Source: Desulfosporosinus metallidurans (GTDB lineage Bacteria > Bacillota > Desulfitobacteriia > Desulfitobacteriales > Desulfitobacteriaceae). From it: a stretch of DNA of 32,000 nucleotides. The notes under the pieces were generated by a model. That model was not told the origin of the DNA. It was given only the letters and a program-made list of their open reading frames with translations, and made no database searches. Location: the NCBI RefSeq assembly GCF_001936615.1, contig NZ_MLBF01000025.1:17824-49823 (forward strand), written 5' to 3'. Made by a program: the position numbers and the translations under genes. Within the stretch, counting starts at the first letter, position 1; every line of letters begins with the position of its first letter. Positions 303-31,535 of this stretch are shown piece after piece.

Positions 303-2224
303 TCGGGTAGGAGGCTACCCATTATTTGAGTAACCGACCTCCCACACCACCGTGCATACCGTTCGGTACACGGCGGTTCCTCAGTTCACGCTGTAACTTG
401 TCGATAATACTCTGAAAAGAATAGGAACCCAAATCCGCTGATAACATTGTTCGTTAGGGATTTAGATAGTATAGGGCTATTGGATGTTCTCCAGTAGCTC
501 TTTCTTGTGTTTGCGTATTCCCATGCTTTCTGCTCGCGGATGCCCAGTGATTTAAGCATTTTCAGCTTCGTTCTCACTCGTTTCCACTGTTTCCAGTAGA
601 TCATGCGAATACGCCTTCTCATCCATTCATCGGTTCCTGAAAGCAACGTCTTAATGTCAGCAATCTTGAAGTAGTTTACCCACCCCATGATATAGCGTCT
701 AAGTTTTGTTGCCCTAAGCTCATTGCCCATTCCATTACTTCTGGCCGTAAGCTCTTTCACTTTGCACCGCATCTTTGCAACCGATTTTGGATGTATTCTA
801 ACCCTCGTTTTGCCTTTAGCTCGGTAAAACGAGAATCCAAGAAATTTCACCTTTCCTACGTAGTCGACCACTGTTTTCTCCTTATTCACTTTGAGCAATA
901 GCTTCTTCTCAATGAAAGGGAGGATGTTGTTTAGTACACGTTGGGCGCTTCTTCTGCTTTTGCAGAAGATCATTAGGTCGTCCGCATAGCGGACGAACCT
1001 GTGCCCCCTTTTCTCAAGCTCCTTGTCCAGTTCATTTAACATAATGTTACTAAGAATCGGACTAAGGGGGCCACCTTGCGGTACGCCGACTTCTGTTTCT
1101 TCGAAGCTATTTCTGACGATCACGCCTGCTCTCAAGTATTTGTGGATGAGCGATATGACTCGACCATCTTTAATTGTTCTTGCTAGTACTTCGACCAATT
1201 TACTTTGATTCACGGTATCGAAATACTTCTCAAGGTCCATGTCTACAACATATTTATATCCTTCTTCTATGTTGTTCTGACATTTCCTGATGGCATCATG
1301 AGCGCTTCGTCCGGGCCTAAACCCATAGCTATTGTCCGAAAACTGCTTCTCAAAAATCGGCGTGAGCACTTGACCTATTGCCTGTTGTACCACTCGGTCA
1401 ACTACGGTAGGAATTCCTAATTTTCTTGTCTTCTTTCCGTCTTCCTTGGGTATTTCCACCCTTCTGACGGGATTAGGACGGTGTTTACCGTCCAAAATTG
1501 ACTGCCTGAGTTGGCCTCCGTTTTCTTTGAGATATTGCAGAAGTTCATCTACTTTCATCCCATCGACTCCATGAGCCCCTTTGTTGGATTTAACTCTCTT
1601 ATATGCGTAGTTCATATTGTCTCTGTCCACAATTCTCTCAAGCAGTCTATCCTTCGACTTGTCTGCGTCGATGATGTTGTTTTCAGTTATCCTCCCAGAA
1701 CTGTGCACTCCTGCATATCCTTCGTGTTCCGCACTATTCTTCTGCAGTGAGCCTTCCTTATGACTGCTGTCTGATGGAAGTTGGCTGCACTTCACTTCCG
1801 TTTTGGTAACATTCATTTACTACCACCTCCTAAGGTTCAGCCCTTCCCCGATGACGTCGACTTCCTCGGGTACAGTACTATGGCATCTGCTGACTTCTCA
1901 TGGCAAATCTTGTTTCAACCGTGATTCAAACTTATCTCCTCACGTCCATGAGACCTCCCACGGTAAGACGATTCACTTTCATTCCATGTACCCACATCAT
2001 CTACATTGGTATGTCTGTGTAGTTAATTGGACTTCGTTTTGTATAGCAAACTCGTCCCATATCCTATGCCTAATGATGTTCGTGTTCCTTGGGTCGGAAT
2101 TTTGCCTCCAGCTTCCTTCAGATTCCACCTCACGGTGGACACCCTTGCTCTTGGCTAATGGTTGGCAACTACAGGCCCCCATAGTGGACTTTCACCACCT
2201 AGTTAATCGCCATGCGTGGCGCAC
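303..2224 (-). mobile_element. Group II intron, compact and class C-like, carrying an RT/maturase ORF
   Basis: The minus-sense 5' end GTGCGCC is at 2224. About 408 nt of ribozyme precede the ORF. After the ORF come a domain V-like hairpin (ACCGCCGTG..TACC-GAAC-GGTA..CACGGTGGT, nt 346-377) and a short domain VI-like hairpin (GGGTAGCCTCCTACCC, 305-320). The non-ORF RNA totals only about 490 nt. The 3' boundary is approximate (295-310). Confidence 0.8.
386..1816 (-). CDS. Group II intron reverse transcriptase/maturase
   Basis: RT motifs are present: KLGIPTVVDRVVQQA, YGFRPGRSAHDA, YVVDMDLEKYFD, GVPQGGPLSPILSN and FVRYADDLMIF (YADD). A maturase/X-like region RRYIMGWVNYF follows. There is no obvious C-terminal HNH domain. 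The RBS reads TAGGAGGTGGTAGTAA-ATG. Confidence 0.95.
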   Translation of the reverse strand: MNVTKTEVKCSQLPSDSSHKEGSLQKNSAEHEGYAGVHSSGRITENNIIDADKSKDRLLERIVDRDNMNYAYKRVKSNKGAHGVDGMKVDELLQYLKENGGQLRQSILDGKHRPNPVRRVEIPKEDGKKTRKLGIPTVVDRVVQQAIGQVLTPIFEKQFSDNSYGFRPGRSAHDAIRKCQNNIEEGYKYVVDMDLEKYFDTVNQSKLVEVLARTIKDGRVISLIHKYLRAGVIVRNSFEETEVGVPQGGPLSPILSNIMLNELDKELEKRGHRFVRYADDLMIFCKSRRSAQRVLNNILPFIEKKLLLKVNKEKTVVDYVGKVKFLGFSFYRAKGKTRVRIHPKSVAKMRCKVKELTARSNGMGNELRATKLRRYIMGWVNYFKIADIKTLLSGTDEWMRRRIRMIYWKQWKRVRTKLKMLKSLGIREQKAWEYANTRKSYWRTSNSPILSKSLTNNVISGFGFLFFSEYYRQVTA

Positions 2225-5684: not shown

Positions 5685-6836
5685 TCAAAGAGTACTAATA
5701 TCTTTAACTTCCTGAAACAGCATTTCTTCAATAGCGCTTTGTATTTTGTTCTTAATAGTTCGAGCGTTTTCGCCAGTTGCTTGAATAACTAGACTCACTC
5801 TTTTATACACATCAATCGCATTAATCTTCTCATTACACTCTTTAACATGTGATTCTATTTCACTCATAGTAATATCGTAGATGGTTTTTTCAGAGAAATC
5901 TTTAAAATGTATGAATTTATCAATTCGATAAAAAATGGGAAGTCCTAGACGATCTTTCATTTCATTCATATTGTTATAATTCGAGGTCAAAACAATTAAT
6001 AAGCCAAATATATCCAATTCATAAGTTGCATCACTAAAAATCGCATTATCAAATAACGTATAAAAGGCTGAGTAAAAGTATTCGGGACATTTATCAAGTT
6101 CGTCAAGAAAAATAAGATTAGATTCTCTTTCCAAAAGATCAAATCCTAGACTTCTTCGGTTTGGACGATCTCCAAAAAAGTAATGGGAATATGCATCGTT
6201 TTTGAACATGGATAAATGTTTTTCAACAAATTTACCATTAAAGAATTTATCTGCAATTTCACGTACTAATTCTGACTTACCTAAACTACTTCCACCATAA
6301 AGCATAATAACATAAGGTTTCTTCCGGTTTGCAGTTGTTAGATACCACATACTTTTACTAATTTCAACTATAGCTTCGTCTTGTCCAAAAATGTTATGAG
6401 CGATTCTTTTCATGTTGCCCGAGAAGTTTTCGGGCTGTCGATTTATGCTATATTCTTCTTTATCGCGAGACAAATGAATTAATCCACGATAATGTAAACC
6501 TTCAAGATACGCTTCTAAAATTATTGGCGGATTATGAATATAAATGATAGCGTCATCTGTTGTTAATTCTTCAATAAGAGAACCTAATCTATCATGGGCT
6601 GATTCTACAATTCCATGATAATTATCATTCTTCAAAATCATTATAGAAGCTTTATCTTCGTCTAAAAAAGGATAACCTCTTTGCTTCCGTTCATCAGATA
6701 ATCTAACTAGCTCCAAAAAAATTTTAATAACATTCTCTTCATATTCTTCATCTTGTTTTTCTTCAAGCTTTTTGACTTGAGCATCGAAAAAAGCCTTCGA
6801 GCCGATAACTATATGGTATGTTCTTTTATCAACCAT
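5685..6836 (-). CDS. ClpB-like AAA+ (AAA_2-type) ATPase, DolB-like (Dodola)
   Basis: Walker A LYGGSSLGKSELVREIA, Walker B LIFLDELDKC and sensor LLIVLTSNY follow the layout of the ClpB D2 module. I prefer the ATG at 6836 (GGAGG 5 nt upstream) over the listed 6857. It overlaps the upstream gene by 8 nt. Confidence 0.8.
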   Translation of the reverse strand: MVDKRTYHIVIGSKAFFDAQVKKLEEKQDEEYEENVIKIFLELVRLSDERKQRGYPFLDEDKASIMILKNDNYHGIVESAHDRLGSLIEELTTDDAIIYIHNPPIILEAYLEGLHYRGLIHLSRDKEEYSINRQPENFSGNMKRIAHNIFGQDEAIVEISKSMWYLTTANRKKPYVIMLYGGSSLGKSELVREIADKFFNGKFVEKHLSMFKNDAYSHYFFGDRPNRRSLGFDLLERESNLIFLDELDKCPEYFYSAFYTLFDNAIFSDATYELDIFGLLIVLTSNYNNMNEMKDRLGLPIFYRIDKFIHFKDFSEKTIYDITMSEIESHVKECNEKINAIDVYKRVSLVIQATGENARTIKNKIQSAIEEMLFQEVKDISTL

Positions 6837-7623
6837 TTGTGCCTCCTGCCGTAACACAAGCGTAAACTACATCGTATAATTGTATTTTTGGGGGCCTGTT
6901 ATCGTCAGATGTCATTACGCTTCTTGCAGTATCTTCGGCATTAGATTGTCTTGTTGGATACGCTTCAGCAAGTGATTTGTGTTGATTTACACCTGAAAGT
7001 AGGGTTTCCATTTTAAATAGTTGCTTCATGAAGTCAAACTTTTCTTTATCAAACTCTCCGACGGAAATACAATATAATGTCATTTTGGTTGCTAATAAAT
7101 CATTGCGCTTATAGTTGCTGACAAACGCTGAATTATTGAATCGCACATAACGGTGAGAATCTACTTTATATGTATCATAACCGTCGTAACCATCCATTAC
7201 AGCCTTAAACTCACTTGTGTCAACACCTTCAACGCCGCCCTTTACAATACGCAAGTAGCCACCAGCTACCCTAAAAAAAGTCGAAGAATTTTCAATGTCA
7301 TATATTAGGGTATCTTTAATTTCTGTAAGGTGCGTTTTCAATTCTTCAAACTCGGAAATTTCTGTTGAAGTAATAGTTGTTGAACTATCTCTCTTAATCA
7401 TAAACGATGCGTTTATTTTTCCAGAAAATAAAAAAGAAAGCCTGTCCCAAAAAGGCACACTCAAATTGACCTTTGCTTCAACTCCAACTTCTATAGCAAC
7501 TCCAGTTGAGGAAACAAAATCTGTTTGTGTTGTTTTTGACCCCTTGTTTTGTTCTTGCAAAATATTCCTTATTGTCTCTTTATCAAAATAAATTGTTTTA
7601 TTAATACTTTTTATATTGCTCAA
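6829..7623 (-). CDS. Hypothetical beta-rich protein, candidate DolA (DUF6414-like) partner of the ClpB-like ATPase
   Basis: 264-aa ORF with a TTG start 8 nt after GGAGGG, translationally coupled to the ATPase. The family call rests on gene pairing and size only, not on a motif I can name. Confidence 0.6.
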   Translation of the reverse strand: MSNIKSINKTIYFDKETIRNILQEQNKGSKTTQTDFVSSTGVAIEVGVEAKVNLSVPFWDRLSFLFSGKINASFMIKRDSSTTITSTEISEFEELKTHLTEIKDTLIYDIENSSTFFRVAGGYLRIVKGGVEGVDTSEFKAVMDGYDGYDTYKVDSHRYVRFNNSAFVSNYKRNDLLATKMTLYCISVGEFDKEKFDFMKQLFKMETLLSGVNQHKSLAEAYPTRQSNAEDTARSVMTSDDNRPPKIQLYDVVYACVTAGGTNG

Positions 7624-8376: not shown

Positions 8377-8940
8377 TTAACTGAATTTCCCCAATCCCTT
8401 TGTGCTTAGAGAAATCTTTTTTTTGACTTCGTCGATAGCAATTATCTCTGCCGGACAAATTTCTCCGACTTCAAATTCGGCATATATATCTCCAACGTAT
8501 CGATAGGCAATCTCAGAAATGTGTATCAGGCCCTGTATGGATTCATCAATGCCAGCAATGGCACCATAAGGCATGATATGAAGTATTTCTACATTGATGA
8601 TGTCACCAACAAAGTGCCGACCGCTATTGCTCAGAAAACTGTCGATATCCTCGTCAGCATCTTCCGGTTCGGATATGGCTTCAGGCTGAAAAATGTCAAG
8701 CTCACTAATGTCTTTTGCGGGTTGTCGATCTTTTAAGGCTTTTTCAAGCTCATCCTGCCTTCGGTTTACTTGCGATACAAAAGGATCTTTTAACCCAGAG
8801 TTTCTTAACCACGCGCATATTTCCAATCCATATTCAACTTTATCCGATGATTTTTCGTATTTGCTTAAGTTATAACATAATTTTAACGTTTGTACCAAAG
8901 CAACCCTGACATTGTGGAAAAGGGCCGCTTTCCCTTTCAA
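8377..8940 (-). CDS. S1 (OB-fold) nucleic-acid-binding domain protein; possibly a -1-frame extension of the upstream tnsD-like gene
   Basis: The C-terminal ~75 aa, VGDIINVEILHIMPYGAIAGIDESIQGLIHISEIA...KKISLSTK, match the S1 domain pattern. The only start is a TTG with no SD, overlapping the upstream stop (TTGA). Confidence 0.6.
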   Translation of the reverse strand: MKGKAALFHNVRVALVQTLKLCYNLSKYEKSSDKVEYGLEICAWLRNSGLKDPFVSQVNRRQDELEKALKDRQPAKDISELDIFQPEAISEPEDADEDIDSFLSNSGRHFVGDIINVEILHIMPYGAIAGIDESIQGLIHISEIAYRYVGDIYAEFEVGEICPAEIIAIDEVKKKISLSTKGLGKFS

Positions 8941-10058
8941 GAAAGGGGTGCGTTTTTTATGAAGTCGAACAGTTCTTTCCCATATTCATTAAATGTCATG
9001 CGATATTGCTGCTTTCTGAGTTTTTCTTCTTCATATTTCCTATACAGAATATCGAAGTTGATACAGTAACCGGTACCGAGAGCAAAAAAAGTAAGATAAT
9101 CGTTAGATGTTTTTTTATGGCTGCCTTTTGCGAAAAATTCCCTGATTGTATTTACAGCTTTTTCTTTTTCCAGCACCTCTTGAGACCATAACAAATAAAC
9201 ATAGAGAGTATAAATGTCGGAATCGTGAATAAAGAAATGTATATATTCTTCTATGACACTAATTGCAGCAACAGGATTTAGCCTTGAGTTTGATAGGTAA
9301 TCAGATAATCGCTTGAGTGCGCTTTTACGAAGATTGTACGAACACTTAGAGTTATTTAAGACACGACGATATTTCTCGACAGTCTCTTTTTCGTTGCTAA
9401 ACGCACGGCTTTTGTCAGCCTGAGTGAGCATGGCCTCTAATATATCACCCTCAATATCTTTCCCTCCGATGCTATTCAATAAATTTCTGACCGTATCCCG
9501 GAAATCTTGAGGATATTCGTTATATCTGGCCGTCATCATCTGGAGTAACTCTGCCGAGTAAACACGACCATAAACATCGTTGTTTCGTTCGATTACCTTT
9601 TGGTTGATGACTTCGTCAATGCTTGCCTCGAACTGATCTTTTTCCGGTATGACTTTTCCAAGAACATATTCCAATACGTCAAAATTGAACCGCAAATCGT
9701 TGTCTACCAGAATAGATATGGTTGCAAACAGATATTGTGCATTTGGACTTAGATAATTGAATATTCGCCCATATAAAAATTCCCGAGCGTCCTCGCTTGT
9801 TCTTATTCCTTCGATGAGGTCTTTTAAGAAATCCAATATAGAGCGTTTCTTCGCCGATTCGAATGTATAGTTAGCCTTCTGCTCAATCATCTTACGCTGC
9901 CTTGGTTTAACCATTAGTTCCTCGAAAACATGGTCGGGGGTTACGTTATAAAGGTAGCTCTCTAATATTATTGCGGCTACTCGCCAACCAATGGATACAA
10001 CCGTTTTTTGTTCTTGTTTATTTCCTTCGGATTCTGATCCTGTTTGGGAATAAATCAT
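8937..10058 (-). CDS. C-terminal portion of a TnsD-like protein (the listed ATG is internal; the frame is open upstream to 10139)
   Basis: Upstream of the listed Met the same frame reads ...KKTQYFFGEFTCPSCGMIYSQTG. The Met therefore lies inside a CxxC zinc-ribbon motif expected after the GPWSC..YCP motif of the preceding ORF. Confidence 0.7.
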   Translation of the reverse strand: MIYSQTGSESEGNKQEQKTVVSIGWRVAAIILESYLYNVTPDHVFEELMVKPRQRKMIEQKANYTFESAKKRSILDFLKDLIEGIRTSEDAREFLYGRIFNYLSPNAQYLFATISILVDNDLRFNFDVLEYVLGKVIPEKDQFEASIDEVINQKVIERNNDVYGRVYSAELLQMMTARYNEYPQDFRDTVRNLLNSIGGKDIEGDILEAMLTQADKSRAFSNEKETVEKYRRVLNNSKCSYNLRKSALKRLSDYLSNSRLNPVAAISVIEEYIHFFIHDSDIYTLYVYLLWSQEVLEKEKAVNTIREFFAKGSHKKTSNDYLTFFALGTGYCINFDILYRKYEEEKLRKQQYRMTFNEYGKELFDFIKNAPLS

Positions 10059-11158
10059 GCCACAGCTAGGACAAGTAAACTCTCCAAAAAAATATTGAGT
10101 TTTTTTGTTAAAACTACTTTTATACCCTGTATAACAAATCTATTATAGTCAGGGCAGTAAGTATTTTTACACGACCAAGGACCCGCACCGAAAGGTGAGG
10201 TAGTAAATTCACTAGATATAAAACCTTTGACGGATTGGGATAGATACTCCATGCCCAAAATATGTAATAGTTGATTTTTTGGACGCCCATTGAAATTCAG
10301 CACTTTTAAAGCAGTCCTATTTGACAGATAAATGGAATCAAGGCCTACAGTCTGTAACATTTCCTCGCTAAATAAACCTAAAAATCCTTTTGAAAACTTT
10401 GTATTTATGAACATCCCTTGGGATGCCAGGTACCCTTTATGTGAATATAATCTGAGCATTTTTTCTTTAAATATTTCAACGTTTAATTTGTCCACATTGT
10501 CAATAACAAATTTAACATCCCTTGCCAGTTGCTCGTTAAACAATTGAATCTGCGTGGGCGATTCTACTTCTACTCTGCGACCATCTCCTAGATAGTGCCC
10601 ACATGAACAAGTAGGTTCCATCAAAATAAATCGTCCAAAGCTATCTGACAATGGTGCACCACATTTGGGACAATGGGTTACTAGGTTAAAGCGATGAACT
10701 GGGCAAACAGTTACAAAATTGTACTGATGAACCCTATGTATATAACATTCCCTAAATCTTTCAAAGTCTTCTATTAAACAAGTTGGACAATAACGAACAA
10801 GGGTGGAGACTATTGGCGACAACAATCGAGTACCAATCTCCGATCTATCACTTGCACACCTAAATTCTACTAGGATCTTTTCGCGTTCATCGAGTGAAAG
10901 AAACGGAAGAAACAGCGCTAATAACGTGTGATTCGCTATGAAATAATCCGTAGTAAGAAAGAGTTTCTCAGGCAGCCTCTCAGCCAAATAATCTAAATTA
11001 CGAGGGAAATGCGCTAATCTATGGGTCTTAATATTAAAAAGTTCCTCAATTGTTTTTGTAATATTTAAGTTACCCGAACGAATGTGGTAACGATACGTCA
11101 AACTCCTGAAGTCTTCATCTTCATAAGGGGTAGGGAAAAAACCTAGTTCATTTTTCAT
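10055..11158 (-). CDS. tniQ: TniQ/TnsD-family transposition target-selector, N-terminal portion
   Basis: FFPTPYEDEDFRSLTYRYHIRSG, HTLLALFLPFLS..ERE, RYCPTCLIEDFERF and CPVHRFNLV run parallel to the Tn7 TnsD N-terminus as I recall it (FPVPYSNELIYSTIARAG.., EHTLFPLYAPFVGKERRD, RYCPDCV.., CPKHGALV). GPWSCKNTYCPDYN follows later. Confidence 0.85.
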   Translation of the reverse strand: MKNELGFFPTPYEDEDFRSLTYRYHIRSGNLNITKTIEELFNIKTHRLAHFPRNLDYLAERLPEKLFLTTDYFIANHTLLALFLPFLSLDEREKILVEFRCASDRSEIGTRLLSPIVSTLVRYCPTCLIEDFERFRECYIHRVHQYNFVTVCPVHRFNLVTHCPKCGAPLSDSFGRFILMEPTCSCGHYLGDGRRVEVESPTQIQLFNEQLARDVKFVIDNVDKLNVEIFKEKMLRLYSHKGYLASQGMFINTKFSKGFLGLFSEEMLQTVGLDSIYLSNRTALKVLNFNGRPKNQLLHILGMEYLSQSVKGFISSEFTTSPFGAGPWSCKNTYCPDYNRFVIQGIKVVLTKKLNIFLESLLVLAVA

Positions 11159-14660: not shown

Positions 14661-15272
14661 TTATGCATTATCTGCCTTCATACTGGCAGTGTAATAGTTA
14701 TGGCGGCGATGGCTTTCAATATTTTTAACAAAAACATTACAATTTAGCCAAGACAATTTCTTTTTAATTTTTTCACGCAAATTGGTCAAAATTGCCTTTT
14801 GAGGCCTTGTGTTTGATGCAAAATCTCCCTCTAAAAACAAAACAACTTTGATTTTGTTTGTTCCCAAAGATATATTATTCGTCATGATAAAATCAGAATA
14901 CTTCTTCAATACCCCACTATGAGTTTGTAATTGTGGCTGAGAATGTGCACCACACAAACATGCCAATGTCATCGCGACTTTTTTAGGAATTTCAATATCG
15001 AGGCTATCTCTGTCCTCAGTATCAACCATTGTGGCGGTTCTATCACGTTTACTGTTGTCCGTTGAAATGCGCCATAGATTTTCACCTTCGTGTCCAGCAC
15101 AATTTTTGACTTCTATTAGCATAAGAGTATCCTCCGATTTCAGAATGAAATCTACTCCCTTGCCGCCTGGCAAATTTTTAAAGTATTTTTTGTAATATCC
15201 AGTATCATCAAATTTATCTACGGTGAGATGATCGTCAAATTCAAAGACGATGCCGCTTTCATCAAACCTCAT
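14661..15272 (-). CDS. PD-(D/E)xK-type nuclease-fold protein (predicted), partner of the upstream ABC-type ATPase
   Basis: GKGVDFIL-(9 aa)-LMLIEVKN gives a D...ExK arrangement. I prefer the ATG at 15272 (AGAGG 7 nt upstream), which gives 203 aa. It overlaps the ATPase stop by 11 nt. Confidence 0.6.
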   Translation of the reverse strand: MRFDESGIVFEFDDHLTVDKFDDTGYYKKYFKNLPGGKGVDFILKSEDTLMLIEVKNCAGHEGENLWRISTDNSKRDRTATMVDTEDRDSLDIEIPKKVAMTLACLCGAHSQPQLQTHSGVLKKYSDFIMTNNISLGTNKIKVVLFLEGDFASNTRPQKAILTNLREKIKKKLSWLNCNVFVKNIESHRRHNYYTASMKADNA

Positions 15273-16332
15273 AGAATAACCTCTGTTCTCTATCATAAAG
15301 ATGATCAAATTCTTGCATAATAGCATTATGTTCTAAATCCAACAATGTAGGACCGGATTCGAAAAGGATATTATCATTTTCCTTATAAAATGAAATGAAT
15401 TTTACATCAATATTTTCTAGCATGGGCTGGTTTGGCTTATACTCAGAAATCATGGAAAAGCACTGCTGTAGGAAGTAATCATGAGTCGCAATAAAAACTT
15501 GAACGCCCATGTTTGCCAGTACTACTAAAGCTTGTACTATTGGTTCTATCATTTTGGGGTTCATATTTGTCTCAGGTTCATCCCAAAAAAGAACTGAGTT
15601 TTTGTTTAAACTTCCGGAGAGGATCAAATATATAATAGTTGATAGCTTACGATATCCTTCGGAAACTAACCCCATTTCAAACTCGCCTTGACCATCTACT
15701 CTAAGGTAAAATTTCTTGCCTTTTTGAATTATCGATCCATTGATTATATTATTAAAGCTCTCCAATACTTTGTTTTGCTCAGCCGTATTGGGTCCCCTCT
15801 TTAAAGGCCTATCAAGTAGAAGAGCCAAATCATAATAAGTTTCTTCAAAAGCAATACGGTATTCGTAGTATAGAGCAGTGAAATTCTCTGTAGCCGAGAT
15901 TATTTCTTTAGGCGGAAGATATATTGGCTCAACAGATTTCACAAATCCTCTTAAGAGTTGATTGATATCCAGATGCTTTTCTTGATTTGAACTAAAACCA
16001 AACTCAAGTTTCGTATTTTCGTTGACTGTTATTGCTATATTAGTGCTTTTGCTTCCCTGAATGCGTCTTACTAAACGTCCAATTTTATCATCATCCGGTC
16101 TAAAAACACCTTGAAGCTTTGAAACTAGAAGCTCTTCATTCTGTTCCTTTGTTAACTCTGACTTAGCTTTGTTGGCATTGCTAATTGACTTAGTTGCCGA
16201 ATACAACAGTTTTAACATGGCCGTCTTACCAGTGCTGTTTTCACCGCTAATAATATTAATATTCTTAGAAAAATCGATATTAAGGGAATTGAAAAGCATG
16301 AAATCATTAAGAACTAATTTGCTAATATACAT
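15262..16332 (-). CDS. ABC-type/AAA_21-like ATPase (the Septu PtuA / PARIS AriA class of ATPase)
   Basis: Walker A ISGENSTGKT, signature-like VSEGYRKLS, Walker B/D-loop VLFWDEPETNMNP and H-loop IATHD. The N-terminus MYISKLVLNDF is typical for this class. I prefer the ATG at 16332 (GAGGTG 6 nt upstream) over 16356. Confidence 0.8.
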   Translation of the reverse strand: MYISKLVLNDFMLFNSLNIDFSKNINIISGENSTGKTAMLKLLYSATKSISNANKAKSELTKEQNEELLVSKLQGVFRPDDDKIGRLVRRIQGSKSTNIAITVNENTKLEFGFSSNQEKHLDINQLLRGFVKSVEPIYLPPKEIISATENFTALYYEYRIAFEETYYDLALLLDRPLKRGPNTAEQNKVLESFNNIINGSIIQKGKKFYLRVDGQGEFEMGLVSEGYRKLSTIIYLILSGSLNKNSVLFWDEPETNMNPKMIEPIVQALVVLANMGVQVFIATHDYFLQQCFSMISEYKPNQPMLENIDVKFISFYKENDNILFESGPTLLDLEHNAIMQEFDHLYDREQRLFYEV

Positions 16333-16441
16333 TTCCCACACCTCTTCCTTATTCATAGATTATTCCCTAATTTTTCAGATTTGATAATGGAGCAAACATC
16401 CTGCATGAATTTCACCTTAACAGCACGCAGATATTACCATT

Positions 16442-27775: not shown

Positions 27776-28291
27776 TTACATTTCGCGTGCAGTCATACCC
27801 GCGCGATGCTGCTCATCTAACGACACATCCGCTAAGACATGTAAATAACGGATTGGGCTATTACCCTGTGAAGTTGTGTGCTCTGACTCGAAGTGAGGAA
27901 TAATACCCACATATGGAACAAGATTCAATGTTTCAGCTGAGCGGATAGTAACAAGAGGTAATGCGCCATCATTCCAATCGTTCATATTCCGAACCATGGT
28001 CGTATAGTCGTTCCAGACTGTTTTCCAGTTGGAAGCCCCACACCAAATCAGTTGAAAGTACAGAAGACAATCCGTTGGATCATACCCGCGCACTTTCAGG
28101 ATATGGGATTTGGTGTATTGACGATTAATACCTTCCAATCGAATAGCTTCACACACTGCTAAACGACGACTATTCTCGGATATGACAACATCAGGCTCGC
28201 CATGTCCTCTCTCACCTTTTCTCTGGACTCCTCCGGTCACGCCTAAATAAGATTGAAATTCCGTATTCCACCCAAGTCCACCGCAAAACAA
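27776..28291 (-). CDS. PD-(D/E)xK-like nuclease-fold ORF, probably the -1-frame C-terminal part of the upstream 964-aa gene
   Basis: GHGEPDVVIS-(9 aa)-AVCEAIRLEG is a D...E.(K/R)-like arrangement. The only start is a TTG with no SD, and there is no internal Met for about 100 codons. It overlaps the 964-aa ORF by 49 nt. Confidence 0.45.
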   Translation of the reverse strand: MFCGGLGWNTEFQSYLGVTGGVQRKGERGHGEPDVVISENSRRLAVCEAIRLEGINRQYTKSHILKVRGYDPTDCLLYFQLIWCGASNWKTVWNDYTTMVRNMNDWNDGALPLVTIRSAETLNLVPYVGIIPHFESEHTTSQGNSPIRYLHVLADVSLDEQHRAGMTAREM

Positions 28292-31137
28292 CTTAGTATA
28301 TGAGAATCCTCATTTGCAATTTGGTCATTACGGATCAAATATGGAGCATATTCTCGCACCTGTTGACACGATTTGAGCACAAGAATCTGAATCAGCCTTT
28401 CATACGTAAAATCCTCCGAACGGAAATAAGCTCGAGCTTTTGCATTAGGATCTGGAAGTGTCGCCAACCGTGCAAGTGCATCAGCGATATCCTGCCACAT
28501 CCACGGGGAATGCGTCACTTCCCCCGGTAACACATCGGAGTTGGTATGTTCTTCAATTTGCATTTGGTACCTTACAAGTTCCGGATTACTCTCGTGCCGA
28601 ACCTGGAATTCTTCTATCAAATGTATCGCTTCTTGCCAATGCTGTTTACGAAACAAGACCTCTAATCGAGTTAGACTCACCGAGAATTGTTGTTGTAATA
28701 GCTCTGGCAAGCTACGGAATGTGGACCAATATTCCTCCCAGTTCTTGAGCACAATGAAAAGATACAGAACGTTAACCGTGGCAAGAATATTATGAGGCGT
28801 AACCGCTTCGGTGACACGACCTATTAATTTAGTTGCAAAGGATTTTGCTTCTAATATACTTTGGCTCTCTATAACTTCAGATTCATCGAACTGGCCAAAA
28901 TACCGTACATAGGCGGCAACCAGGTTAATGAGATAACTATATTCACCGGGATAATGACTGTGTAGATGACGAAAATCATTAATTGCCTGCGTTAACTCGT
29001 GACGCCCGCCCCGTTCGAAATGGACCAACGCCTTATAAAACTGTCTCGTAACCTCGAAATTCTCACGGCTACTGATTCTGTCTGGGGGAAGAGTTTGTTC
29101 GACAGTGTCAAAATTTCTCTCCGCAAACGCGAGGTGAAGACGAATGCGATAAGACCATTCAACCCACCCAGGTATACAACGCTCCCTACCTACTGGCTCA
29201 TAATGATTATAGAGGCTGCTTGCTCTCTCCACAAAGGCAGGTACGCGAGTAGCCAGTAGCTCAGAAATTGTACTTTGCACCTCTGACAGACTATGATGCG
29301 AGGATGACTCGTCGGATGTCACACGCAATAATCGATGCTGTATAGTCTCTCTGTCAATCGGATTAGCCAAATGATTAAAAATCACAGCTAAACGTCTGGC
29401 ATCAGTTGTAGATTCAGCAAAAGCTTCGAGTGTGCGACTTCGTTCATCTGCGGGGAGTCGGTTGATTGCGTCGGTAAGTACCACTAATAAAGGCTCTACA
29501 TCTGTAGGAACACTCTGAAAAGCATTCGCTTCAATCATCCATGAGAAGGCGTCAACGGTGGACTCCTCCAAGAAGTCATCCTGTTGAAATGCTCGGAAAC
29601 ACTGCACCAGGGCATCCGAAACATCACGTAACACTACGGGGTCTGAAATATTGCGCGCCATATAGGCTAGCCAACGTAAGTGGATTCGAATTTTTTGCCT
29701 CCTGACATAAACCGACGACGGATCATCTATAAGTGTTCCGTTAGCAATGGATAGTGTGCTCGCCCATTCGGACACGTGACGATCTCGCATGTATAGCCCA
29801 GCTGCAATCCACCCTTCATGCGCAACGTATGATTCGGTATCTGAAGAGAGGTGTGCCAGTTCAGTTCGAATGACGTTACGATAAGCGGCAAAGAGGTACC
29901 TATAAAGTCTGTCTGAAATAGCAGGATATTCGTATGTAACCTTTGAACATAACCATAGAATAATGTCCCAGTAAGGGGATTCAAGCTTTGACTCAATAGG
30001 ATCTAACGCTAACTTAACCATATCAAAAATGGATGGAAAGACTGCGCTGATAAACGATTCCTGTGTGTTACTGTATCGTTGCATCACTTGTAGTAGTTCG
30101 CAAAAGCTCTGATATTGCATTGTCTGTCTTTGAAGTTGGACTCCAGATCTCGTTACGCGATGTGTGAATGTTCGATGCTGTTTTACGAGCCACCCGATAA
30201 CATCAACAATGAACCTGCTCTCCTCATTAACATCATTCATGCCCTTGAGAATTACTCCGATGAATGCCAGACCTTCGTTCCATAGAATTTCCATTGAATC
30301 GATTGATTCAGATAGAGTGAACTTGGAAAGCAACAATGTGCCGATCAAGGCTGTTTGGGTTCTGGATAAAAGATGAGCGATGAGCTCAGGTATAGACTCT
30401 CTGCACGCCATAGACAGTGCTCGATAAATAAATGGACGCTCTGGCATCCCCTGCATCAATTTCCAAAAACATTCCCGTTTTAAACTATCTCCGGAACCAA
30501 TACCTTCACCAACAAATAGACACAATATCAGAAAATGATAAGAACCCCGTGCATCGTCCACAAACATGGATGGGTCCAATCGAGGATTTTCGTATTGGTA
30601 CAGACGTTCTTCTTCTGAATTCAAATTTGGCAGCCAGGACATGACCTCTTCGTCCAACAAAAGTCGTCCGTTCATTGTCGCTAACTCCGCGCCAAACTTA
30701 CGTTTTTCCCATTCCCAATCCTGTAAATCCCTTTCGTCAAGTATTTGAATAAGGCAAGCATCAAGAAAATTCGATCGGGGAAAGGCAGACATATAATTGA
30801 GGAAGTCGAAGGAAGGTCTCAAAAACTCCGTACGATCATACCACCATGAAAGTCTATCCATTTTTTCTGATGGACCTGCATTGTAATCCTCCCAAAGCTG
30901 AGAGCAAAGGCGTGAAGCGTACATTTGGAGATGTTTAGAGTGGCGATTCAGGGTAAACACCGATCTCCCAGCGATATGAACACTGTCAACAAGTGCGTTA
31001 CGAATGAACCAGTCTTCGTTTGGGGCACTGGGATACCGTAAACGATGGCTATTCAGAATATCTTTGAAACTCGAAATTTCAAATTTGCGTTCATCTGGAT
31101 AGGGAGTATTTTTCATCATCTGTAGAAATCCACGCAT
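28243..31137 (-). CDS. Large (964 aa) predominantly helical protein of unknown function, with a TPR-like C-terminal third
   Basis: Long uninterrupted ORF with no P-loop or other catalytic motif that I can recognise. Helical-repeat character, e.g. FYKALVHFERGGRHELTQAINDFRHLHSHYPGEYSYLINLVAAYV. Confidence 0.7.
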   Translation of the reverse strand: MRGFLQMMKNTPYPDERKFEISSFKDILNSHRLRYPSAPNEDWFIRNALVDSVHIAGRSVFTLNRHSKHLQMYASRLCSQLWEDYNAGPSEKMDRLSWWYDRTEFLRPSFDFLNYMSAFPRSNFLDACLIQILDERDLQDWEWEKRKFGAELATMNGRLLLDEEVMSWLPNLNSEEERLYQYENPRLDPSMFVDDARGSYHFLILCLFVGEGIGSGDSLKRECFWKLMQGMPERPFIYRALSMACRESIPELIAHLLSRTQTALIGTLLLSKFTLSESIDSMEILWNEGLAFIGVILKGMNDVNEESRFIVDVIGWLVKQHRTFTHRVTRSGVQLQRQTMQYQSFCELLQVMQRYSNTQESFISAVFPSIFDMVKLALDPIESKLESPYWDIILWLCSKVTYEYPAISDRLYRYLFAAYRNVIRTELAHLSSDTESYVAHEGWIAAGLYMRDRHVSEWASTLSIANGTLIDDPSSVYVRRQKIRIHLRWLAYMARNISDPVVLRDVSDALVQCFRAFQQDDFLEESTVDAFSWMIEANAFQSVPTDVEPLLVVLTDAINRLPADERSRTLEAFAESTTDARRLAVIFNHLANPIDRETIQHRLLRVTSDESSSHHSLSEVQSTISELLATRVPAFVERASSLYNHYEPVGRERCIPGWVEWSYRIRLHLAFAERNFDTVEQTLPPDRISSRENFEVTRQFYKALVHFERGGRHELTQAINDFRHLHSHYPGEYSYLINLVAAYVRYFGQFDESEVIESQSILEAKSFATKLIGRVTEAVTPHNILATVNVLYLFIVLKNWEEYWSTFRSLPELLQQQFSVSLTRLEVLFRKQHWQEAIHLIEEFQVRHESNPELVRYQMQIEEHTNSDVLPGEVTHSPWMWQDIADALARLATLPDPNAKARAYFRSEDFTYERLIQILVLKSCQQVREYAPYLIRNDQIANEDSHILSCFAVDLGGIRNFNLI

Positions 31138-31535
31138 AGAGTCGTTCCCTTAAAATTCCCTATGAGGAGACAGCGTAAGTGGTGAGGAAAGTACCACTGA
31201 TTCCAAACAATCCGGATCAAGCCGTCTCGAACCATTTCATCAAAATTGATATTAGCACCGTCGTACTTGGCATTGTACACCTGCAATGCGTCCACAAAAT
31301 TTTGAGCAGAACGAGGATCTGGAGAAGGGTTTAGCTTTTGGAGAAATGTTAAAAGTAATACATCCAAGCCCCAACCGACTATCTCAGATCCATCTAATTC
31401 ATCGAAGAGGTTGGCGCTATGCATCGGCTGTGAATATCTTCTGAGCCGCACGGCAAACTCGCCGACCGCCTGGTTGCGGGAGAGTGAGATGTGTTGAATT
31501 TTATGTTCCAAATCGTAGCGATTCAAGAGTTCCAC
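31116..31535 (-). CDS. Hypothetical protein (139 aa), possibly the remnant of a longer decayed gene
   Basis: GTG start, and the stop overlaps the next gene. An in-frame TAA lies only 6 codons upstream of the GTG, with protein-like sequence before it. Confidence 0.4.
   Translation of the reverse strand: MELLNRYDLEHKIQHISLSRNQAVGEFAVRLRRYSQPMHSANLFDELDGSEIVGWGLDVLLLTFLQKLNPSPDPRSAQNFVDALQVYNAKYDGANINFDEMVRDGLIRIVWNQWYFPHHLRCLLIGNFKGTTLCVDFYR

What the first reader, a model, noticed from the sequence alone, without database searches (positions are those of the whole stretch)
10055..10142. tnsD/tniQ gene is split by a -1 frame change exactly at an A AAA AAA run inside its zinc-ribbon region
The 367-aa TniQ ORF ends ...GPWSCKNTYCPDYNRFVIQGIKVVLTKK LNIFLESLLVLAVA*. 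The next ORF's frame is open upstream of its ATG and reads ...KKTQYFFGEFTCPSCGMIYSQTG, so the annotated Met sits inside a CxxC motif that completes the zinc ribbon. The two frames meet at the A7 run (minus sense ACA AAA AAA CTC, plus coordinates 10100-10106). A single extra A, or a -1 ribosomal slip on the canonical X XXY YYZ heptamer A AAA AAA, yields one ~735-aa TnsD-like protein. Programmed -1 frameshifting on A-runs is well known in IS transposase genes but, to my knowledge, not in tnsD. The alternatives are pseudogenisation or a homopolymer assembly error.
Basis: seen in the sequence. Interest (0 to 1): 0.65.

Follow-up and report, generated by a model that had tools for sequence, protein, structure and literature searches.

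The report
Decayed tnsD remnant, not programmed frameshift
The split transposon gene is real, but it is an ordinary broken gene: one base was lost 20 bases before the A-run, and the last third of the gene was replaced by a fragment of an unrelated gene, so there is no recoding signal here.

Summary
The downstream ATG does lie inside a conserved CxxCG motif of one ancestral tnsD gene. The frame break, however, is not at the A-run. Against three intact ~660-aa TnsD genes, the only indel is a missing C between 10127 and 10126 (CAG-C-GG became CAGGG). The A-run has the ancestral length: the closest homologue reads AAC AAG AAA ACT and the window reads AAC AAA AAA ACT. A8 was therefore never the ancestral state.

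TnsD homology also ends at 9825, which is residue 443 of 662. From 9824 the same ORF continues in frame as residues 506-799 of an unrelated ~986-aa STAND NTPase with a C-terminal S1 domain. That gene has lost its NTPase half and carries its own +2 frameshift (A4 to A6, 8953-8958).

Independent assemblies of three sequencing runs contain identical sequence at all three lesions, so this is not an assembly error. No RNA structure follows the A-run (z = 0.30). A slip at A7 would give a TnsD/STAND chimera, not a TnsD.

Verdict: a multiply damaged tnsD remnant inside a defence island. It is ordinary and of low interest.

The parts
10055..11158 (-). tnsD remnant, part 1: a 367-aa ORF. Residues 1-342 match intact TnsD. 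The last 25 residues (GIKVVLTKKLNIFLESLLVLAVA...) are out-of-frame read-through.
   Evidence: Pfam TniQ 3.4e-17 and TnsD 4.6e-21, profile positions 1-142 of 355 only. 86% identity to the intact 662-aa P0001. tblastn HSP 11158-10100.
10126..10127 (-). Site of the 1-nt deletion that causes the frameshift. A C present in all three intact homologues (CAG CGG TAT in the closest one) is missing between these two bases.
   Evidence: DNA alignment A2 has a single gap column in the window at this point and none at the A-run. The tblastn HSP in the second frame already starts at 10124, at Y344 of P0001.
10100..10106 (-). It lies in the ancestral frame as AAC AAA AAA ACT (N K K T). It has the same length as the homologue's AAC AAG AAA ACT and is not the site of the frame break.
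9825..10124 (-). tnsD remnant, part 2: TnsD residues 344-443 in the -1 frame, including the CPSCGM motif. The annotated ATG at 10058 is the conserved internal Met.
   Evidence: 88% identity to P0001 residues 344-443. C361, C364 and G365 are invariant in the family.
9824..9825 (-). Deletion/fusion junction. tnsD codon 443 is joined in frame to codon 506 of a STAND NTPase-S1 gene, with 1-2 nt (A/AA) of microhomology.
   Evidence: blastn: tnsD homology covers 11243-9823 and STAND homology covers 9823-8138. Three-way sequence view. tblastn boundaries 9825/9824.
8943..9824 (-). STAND NTPase-S1 gene remnant, residues 506-799. The NB-ARC/NACHT NTPase domain (residues ~283-450 in intact homologues) is absent.
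   Evidence: 89% identity to P0005 residues 506-799. Pfam on P0005 and P0006.
8953..8958 (-). Second frameshift: an A6 run where intact STAND genes have A4 or AAAG (+2 nt). It splits off the last 187 codons.
   Evidence: DNA alignment A3; pairwise alignment; frame change between the tblastn HSPs.
8377..8940 (-). STAND NTPase-S1 gene remnant, residues 800-985, containing the S1 RNA-binding domain.
   Evidence: 80% identity to P0005 residues 800-985. Pfam S1 4.3e-13.

Best explanation
Window 8377-11158 (minus strand) holds the wreck of two genes, not a recoded gene. An ancestral ~660-aa tnsD, the target-selector gene of a Tn7-like transposon, suffered two lesions. (1) A single C was lost between 10127 and 10126, which shifts the frame by one. 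(2) A deletion or illegitimate recombination removed its last 219 codons. From comparison with relatives, this event probably also removed the transposon end about 200 bp beyond the gene (inferred). The deletion joined tnsD codon 443 to codon 506 of a ~986-aa STAND NTPase-S1 gene, which lost its NTPase half. (3) That second gene later or independently gained 2 nt in an A-run, which splits it again. The A7 run lies by coincidence in the stretch where both frames are open. It derives from an ancestral Lys-Lys codon pair by one synonymous G-to-A change. The 367-aa and 373-aa ORFs are annotation by-products of a pseudogene. Shown here: the position of the indel, the fusion junction, the second frameshift, and reproducibility across assemblies. 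Inferred: loss of function, and loss of the transposon end.
For: - Indel position: in DNA alignment with three intact tnsD genes, the window has one gap, opposite a C, at 10127|10126, and no gap at the A-run.
- Frame of homology: the downstream frame matches P0001 at 8 of 8 residues (YKSSFNKK) upstream of and across the A-run. The upstream frame matches 3 of 8. The tblastn HSP in the second frame starts at 10124.
- Family state: the family hits returned are mostly single ORFs of ~600-665 aa with the Cys motif continuous. The shorter genome matches examined are uninterrupted ORFs.
- Extent of TnsD: coverage stops at residue 443. The rest of ORF2 and the next ORF equal residues 506-985 of STAND-S1 proteins at 80-89% identity.
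- Lost domains: the intact P0001 has the Pfam TnsD domain over residues 209-597, while ORF1 of the window retains only profile positions 1-142. The STAND NTPase domain (residues 283-450) is absent.
- Second frameshift: +2 in an A-run.
- Reproducibility: Logan assemblies from SRR22746131, SRR22746137 and SRR22746138 contain all three lesion sites with identical sequence, and their contigs are 99.96-100% identical to the window overall.
- No stimulatory element: RNA fold of the 90 nt 3' of the A-run gives -13.7 kcal/mol, z = 0.30.
- Function of the missing part: TnsD-type selectors depend on long C-terminal regions beyond the ~300-aa core (PMC10293859).
- No tnsA, tnsB or tnsC gene lies in the window or in the ~5.5 kb of the same population's DNA that L013 adds beyond the window's upper end.
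Against: - The A7 is in the exact X XXY YYZ phase inside a short two-frame overlap, which is uncommon by chance (about 0.5-1.5%, from the run counts).
- A branch test shows no excess of non-synonymous change on the window lineage: 28 N / 23 S against 23 N / 26 S, p = 0.55. The lesions may therefore be recent, and long-term decay is not demonstrated.
- The fusion junction is in frame and ORF2 is stop-free for 373 codons.
- No expression data are available.
Confidence: 0.92

Rival explanations
1. Programmed -1 ribosomal frameshifting, or transcriptional slippage, at A AAA AAA (10100-10106) joins the two ORFs. The cell would make both a short TniQ-like protein and a long fusion protein, as in IS3/IS1-type transposases.
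For: The heptamer is in the correct phase and lies within the overlap of the two open frames. The A7 differs from the closest intact homologue by a G-to-A change that creates the run. The ORF1 stop and ORF2 start overlap as ATGA.
Against: - The true indel is 20 nt upstream, so slippage would replace 7 residues between the Cys pairs (GIKVVLT in place of RYKSSFN).
- The product would lack TnsD residues 444-662 and carry 294 residues of an NTPase-less STAND fragment.
- There is no downstream hairpin or pseudoknot signal (z = 0.30). By eye, no Shine-Dalgarno-like stimulator lies upstream.
- No split relative was found outside this one population. Other family members examined are single ORFs.
- A neighbouring gene remnant carries another, uncompensated frameshift.
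- A7 is shorter than the runs of about 9 or more that give efficient transcriptional slippage in bacteria (my own knowledge, not tested here).
Confidence: 0.03
2. Sequencing or assembly error: the real genome has an intact tnsD, and the split is an artefact, as the first reader suggested for the homopolymer.
For: Single-base indels are the commonest assembly error. The second frameshift (A4 to A6) does lie in a homopolymer.
Against: - The missing base at 10127|10126 was a C flanked by G's (CAG-C-GG), not part of a homopolymer, and the A-run has the expected length.
- Contigs assembled independently from three runs contain the frameshift, the fusion junction and the A6 site with identical sequence, and are 99.96-100% identical to the window overall.
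- Even with the base restored, the gene is truncated and fused, and no base-calling error could create that junction.
Confidence: 0.03
3. The 367-aa product is a functional short TniQ-like protein. It retains the ~300-aa TniQ/TnsD core but not the target-DNA-binding C-terminus, and has been exapted, for example as an adaptor for another selector.
For: ORF1 keeps the whole Pfam TniQ domain and the start of the TnsD domain. Natural TniQ-family proteins of ~420 aa exist among the relatives. A shared ~300-aa core is described in PMC10293859. There is no excess of non-synonymous change on this lineage.
Against: - No tnsA, tnsB or tnsC gene lies in the window or in the ~5.5 kb that L013 adds beyond its upper end.
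- The truncation cuts through a family-invariant Cys motif, so only the first half of the second Cys cluster remains.
- The arrangement is seen in only one population.
- The neighbouring remnants point to decay.
Confidence: 0.02

Closest known systems
TnsD family target selectors of Tn7-like transposons (Pfam PF06527 TniQ + PF15978 TnsD), closest in Desulfosporosinus (D. hippei DSM 8344 and a Desulfosporosinus MAG)
   Same: Residues 1-443 are 86-88% identical to an intact 662-aa metagenomic TnsD (P0001) and 71-74% identical to the Desulfosporosinus MAG TnsD (P0002); the tblastn scan with the family alignment lists the two Desulfosporosinus genome loci at 74-75%. The region has the N-terminal TniQ domain, the zinc-finger Cys/His residues and the second GPWxCxN...CxxCG motif. 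As in its closest relatives, the gene follows defence cargo rather than tnsC.
   Different: It is frameshifted by a 1-nt deletion. It lacks residues 444-662, which include most of the Pfam TnsD domain. It is fused to foreign sequence, and no tnsABC genes lie nearby.
Programmed -1 frameshifting on A AAA AAG/A heptamers in IS3- and IS1-family transposase genes and dnaX (my own knowledge)
   Same: An in-phase A AAA AAA heptamer lies in the overlap of a 0 frame and a -1 frame within a transposition gene.
   Different: There is no conservation of the two-frame arrangement and no stimulatory structure. The frame difference is explained by a lineage-specific deletion upstream of the heptamer. The downstream frame does not encode the rest of the protein.
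STAND (NB-ARC/NACHT-like) NTPases with a C-terminal S1 domain, ~986 aa, uncharacterised and found in mobile-element contexts
   Same: Window 9824-8383 encodes residues 506-985 at 80-89% identity.
   Different: The N-terminal 505 residues, including the NTPase domain, are deleted, and a +2 frameshift splits the remainder. No PADLOC model matches the intact homologue.

Membership tests
TnsD / TniQ family (Tn7-like target selector) | N-terminal TniQ domain (PF06527) with zinc-finger Cys/His residues | tested here: met
   PF06527 E = 3.4e-17 over residues 7-159. The family-invariant C124, C127, C152 and H155 of P0001 have counterparts in the window.
TnsD / TniQ family (Tn7-like target selector) | Complete TnsD domain (PF15978, 355 profile positions) in one uninterrupted ORF of ~600-660 aa | tested here: not met
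   ORF1 matches only profile positions 1-142, and ORF2 on its own gives no Pfam hit. The intact P0001 covers positions 1-353. Homology ends at residue 443 of 662. The reading frame is broken at 10127|10126.
TnsD / TniQ family (Tn7-like target selector) | Accompanied by tnsA/tnsB/tnsC core genes and transposon ends | tested here: not met
   No TnsA, TnsB or TnsC domains were found among the window ORFs that were scanned or among the genes called in the ~5.5 kb that L013 adds beyond the window's upper end. The ~200-bp conserved tail downstream of tnsD in relatives is replaced in the window by STAND sequence. Sequence further out was not available.
Programmed -1 ribosomal frameshift site | Slippery X XXY YYZ heptamer in phase within the overlap of the two frames | tested here: met
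   (AC)A AAA AAA at 10106-10100 in the frame of ORF1.
Programmed -1 ribosomal frameshift site | The two-frame arrangement and the heptamer are conserved among homologues | tested here: not met
   Homologues examined are single ORFs. The closest has AAG AAA A with no frame change, and others have no A-run. The split occurs only in one ~100%-identical population.
Programmed -1 ribosomal frameshift site | Downstream stimulatory hairpin or pseudoknot, or an upstream SD-like element | tested here: not met
   MFE -13.7 kcal/mol against a shuffle mean of -14.5, z = 0.30. No SD-like motif is visible in the 20 nt upstream. Pseudoknots were not explicitly modelled.
Programmed -1 ribosomal frameshift site | The frameshift product is the full functional protein | tested here: not met
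   The product would be TnsD(1-443, with 7 altered residues) fused to STAND(506-799).
Programmed -1 ribosomal frameshift site | Measured frameshifting in vivo or in vitro | not testable with these tools
   This needs a reporter assay, ribosome profiling or proteomics.

The most novel reading that the evidence does not exclude
After the upstream C was lost, the synonymous AAG-to-AAA change that created an in-phase A AAA AAA heptamer 20 nt downstream was selected as a compensatory low-level frameshift or transcriptional-slippage site. It would have kept some long product being made, either before the 3' deletion occurred or as a TnsD-core/STAND-tail chimera with a new role in the defence island.
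Probability: 0.02. Interest if true: 0.5.

Novelty: already known. Interest (0 to 1): 0.07.

Why it matters
It matters mainly as a correction. The apparent slippery-site split in tnsD is a pseudogene, so it should not be counted as the first case of recoding in a Tn7 target selector. It is also a methodological caution. When two frames overlap for tens of bases, a slippery-looking run inside the overlap is not evidence of where the frames join, and nor is it evidence that they join by design. Alignment to intact homologues placed the lesion elsewhere. For annotation, the 367-aa, 373-aa and 187-aa ORFs should be marked as fragments of two pseudogenes. For biology, it suggests that this defence island (CBASS just outside the window, then BREX, HEC-02 and Dodola within it) is probably cargo of a Tn7-like element. 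That element has lost its selector and probably one end, and is now fixed in place.

Tried and rejected
- Joined the two ORFs at the A-run and searched with the 740-aa product. I expected full-length TnsD hits. Instead the hits fell into two unrelated families covering 60% and 40% of the query, which exposed the chimera.
- Looked for a stimulatory RNA structure 3' of the A-run and found none.
- Asked whether short matches (residues 5-374 or 5-400) in other genomes were further split tnsD genes. They are uninterrupted ORFs of 419-648 codons, either natural ~420-aa TniQ-like proteins or full-length proteins with divergent C-termini.
- Tested for relaxed selection on the window lineage with outgroup-polarised N/S counts. 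The result was not significant (p = 0.55), so the age of the lesions is unresolved.
- Looked for tnsD next to the STAND-S1 gene in relatives, which would explain the fusion as a simple local deletion. The intact STAND genes retrieved sit in other mobile contexts (IS66, integrase/relaxase) and not beside tnsD, so the pre-deletion arrangement is unknown.
- The look-up of P0009 (Desulfitobacterium metallireducens) returned no record.
- A literature search for tnsD plus frameshift found only incidental mentions and no report of recoding in tnsD.
- PADLOC gave no name for the STAND-S1 protein.
Full report
**1. The observation**

On the minus strand, ORF1 (11158..10055) is 367 aa and ends ...CKNTYCPDYNRFVIQGIKVVLTKKLNIFLESLLVLAVA*. 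ORF2 (10058..8937) is 373 aa. Its frame is open upstream of its ATG and reads ...GYKSSFNKKTQYFFGEFTCPSCGMIYSQTG. ORF2 is in the -1 frame relative to ORF1.

The A7 run occupies 10100-10106 and is phased (AC)A AAA AAA in ORF1's frame. ORF1 carries Pfam TniQ (3.4e-17) and the first 142 of 355 positions of Pfam TnsD (4.6e-21). ORF2 alone has no Pfam hit. The raw description is therefore accurate. The untested step was the claim that the frames join at the A-run. Both frames are open over roughly 86 nt (about 10055-10140), so the sequence alone cannot say where they join.

**2. Where the frame actually breaks**

I joined the ORFs at the A-run and searched with the 740-aa product. The best TnsD hits are single proteins of 657-664 aa. 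P0001 is 86% identical, and P0002 from a Desulfosporosinus MAG is 73% identical. P0001 reads ...NRFVIQRYKSSFNKKTQYIFGEFTCPSCGM...

The window's downstream frame reads YKSSFNKK, matching 8 of 8 residues, upstream of and across the A-run. ORF1's frame reads IKVVLTKK there. The tblastn HSP in the second frame begins at 10124, which is 18 nt 5' of the run.

At the DNA level, L001, the gene for P0001 (about 91% nt identity), has GTT ATA CAG CGG TAT AAA AGT AGT TTT AAC AAG AAA ACT. The window has GTTATACAG-GGTATAAAAGTAGTTTTAACAAAAAAACT. The four-way alignment has one gap in the window, opposite a C that is present in all three intact genes, between 10127 and 10126. It has no gap at the A-run or at the following T-run.

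The A7 is the ancestral AAG AAA A with one synonymous G-to-A change. A8 was therefore never the ancestral state, and the lesion is not a homopolymer length change.

**3. The downstream ORF is not the rest of TnsD**

The hits fall into two unrelated families. TnsD proteins cover only the first 60% of the query. The last 40% matches ~986-aa proteins with NB-ARC/NACHT-like STAND NTPase signatures and a C-terminal S1 domain (P0005 and P0006, 88-89%).

The boundaries are sharp:
- tnsD homology runs 11243-9823, and STAND homology runs 9823-8138.
- At the protein level, TnsD residue 443 (window 9825) is followed in frame by STAND residue 506 (window 9824).
- The junction shows only 1-2 nt of microhomology.

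The intact P0001 carries the Pfam TnsD domain over residues 209-597, so most of that domain and the C-terminal 219 residues are gone. Published structural comparison describes a ~300-aa core shared by TniQ and TnsD, with TnsD-type selectors carrying long, diverse C-terminal regions beyond it (PMC10293859).

The STAND fragment lacks its NTPase domain, which occupies residues ~283-450 in intact homologues. The next ORF (8940..8377, 187 aa, S1 domain) is STAND residues 800-985. It is separated by a second frameshift: the window has A6 at 8953-8958 where intact genes have A4 or AAAG. Three independent lesions therefore lie within 2.8 kb.

**4. Artefact or real?**

Exact-sequence look-ups of ORF1 and ORF2 returned contigs assembled independently from runs SRR22746131, SRR22746137 and SRR22746138, all with the same 367/373/187-aa gene calls. 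Those contigs are 99.96-100% identical to the window. They contain identical sequence at the frameshift, the fusion junction and the A6 site.

The lost base was not in a homopolymer. An assembly error is therefore very unlikely, although I could not inspect reads. The intact relative P0001 comes from a run with a neighbouring accession (SRR22746142).

**5. Is there any sign of programmed recoding?**

- The 90 nt 3' of the A-run fold no better than shuffled sequence (-13.7 kcal/mol, z = 0.30).
- I see no SD-like element in the 20 nt upstream.
- In ten aligned family members the GPWxCxN(xxC)...CxxCG motif is invariant or nearly invariant and lies in one continuous ORF.
- Among 80 genome loci, the matches that stop near residue 374-400 are uninterrupted ORFs (natural ~420-aa TniQ-like proteins, or full-length proteins with divergent C-termini), not split genes.
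- A slip at A7 would give a protein with 7 wrong residues between the Cys pairs, no TnsD C-terminus, and 294 residues of a dead STAND gene.

An outgroup-polarised count of changes gave 28 N / 23 S on the window branch against 23 N / 26 S on the L001 branch (p = 0.55). This neither supports nor excludes recent inactivation.

The in-phase A7 in a short overlap is a priori uncommon. Six such runs occur per 32 kb on this strand, which gives about 1.5% for an 86-nt stretch and about 0.5% in phase. However, it sits on a Lys-Lys pair one transition away from A7, it was found post hoc, and a T7 run a few bases further on is also in phase. I treat it as coincidence and leave about 2-3% for a slippage-based reading.

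**6. Context**

The remnant lies in a defence island. Reading along the minus strand:
- CBASS genes lie just beyond the window (L013).
- Three ORFs of 139, 964 and 171 aa have no Pfam or PADLOC match.
- BREX type 1 follows: BrxA, BrxB, BrxC, PglX and PglZ, at 27411-16580.
- An HEC-02 pair is next, at 16356-14661.
- A DrmD/BrxH-like SNF2 helicase is next, at 14526-11341.
- Then come the tnsD and STAND remnants.
- Dodola DolA/DolB are at 7623-5685.
- Housekeeping-looking genes and a group II intron reverse transcriptase follow.

No tnsA/B/C is present in the window or in the ~5.5 kb that L013 adds beyond its upper end. The closest intact tnsD genes are likewise preceded by variable defence cargo: SIR2 in L001, and TIR and SIR2-HerA in L002. 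Homology to the window begins only ~85-100 nt upstream of the start codon.

In the Desulfosporosinus MAG and in D. hippei, conservation extends ~200 bp past the tnsD stop and then ends. In D. hippei a complete tnsA-tnsB-tnsC-tnsD set follows. I infer, without having shown it, that this tnsD normally sits at the distal end of a Tn7-like element after its cargo. I also infer that the deletion in the window removed that end and left the cargo island immobile. The closest named relatives are Desulfosporosinus, which fits the window's ~40% G+C.

**7. Comparison with known systems, and verdict**

The gene is a former member of the TnsD family. It now fails the tests for an intact member: the TnsD domain is incomplete, the frame is broken, and there are no partner genes.

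It resembles IS-type -1 frameshift sites only in having a phased heptamer. Conservation, a stimulator and a meaningful trans-frame product were all tested and not met.

A literature search found no report of recoding in tnsD, and this locus does not provide one. The finding is an ordinary, multiply damaged pseudogene. Interest is low.

Noticed in passing
window 27776-31535 (-): Three co-oriented, overlapping ORFs of 139, 964 and 171 aa have no Pfam or PADLOC match. They sit between a CBASS operon (just outside the window, seen in L013) and BrxA of the BREX system. Their position makes them candidates for an undescribed defence system or BREX accessory genes.
   Followed up: partly
window 8953-8958 and 8377-9824 (-): The remnant of a ~986-aa STAND (NB-ARC/NACHT-like) NTPase with a C-terminal S1 RNA-binding domain lacks the first 505 residues and is split by an A4-to-A6 insertion. 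Intact homologues have no PADLOC model and sit next to IS66 or integrase/relaxase genes, which suggests an uncharacterised STAND-S1 family carried on mobile elements.
   Followed up: partly
L015 794-10631 (Desulfosporosinus hippei DSM 8344); L014 11984-12329: In the closest relatives, the intact 660-aa tnsD follows variable defence cargo and lies ~200 bp from where conservation ends. In D. hippei it is followed ~860 bp later by a complete tnsA-tnsB-tnsC-tnsD set with PIN-domain cargo. This means either tandem Tn7-like elements or an element whose selector gene sits at the end distal to tnsABC.
   Followed up: partly
window 14661-16356 (-): An HEC-02 A/B pair (AAA_21 ATPase plus DUF6661) lies between PglZ and a DrmD/BrxH-like SNF2 helicase, as if nested inside or appended to the BREX type 1 operon.
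   Followed up: no
window 5685-7623 (-): A Dodola system (DolA 1.4e-50, DolB 4.6e-97 in PADLOC) lies immediately downstream of the two gene remnants.
   Followed up: no
window 10086-10092 and 10055-10058 (-): A T7 run 7 nt 3' of the A7 run is also in a slippery phase (U UUU UUG) in ORF1's frame. The ORF1 stop and the ORF2 'start' overlap as ATGA. Both appear to be accidental consequences of the frameshift, since the homologue has the same lengths there.
   Followed up: yes
window 386-1816 (-): A group II intron reverse transcriptase/maturase ORF (RVT_1 plus GIIM, 476 aa) lies at the low-coordinate end of the window.
   Followed up: no
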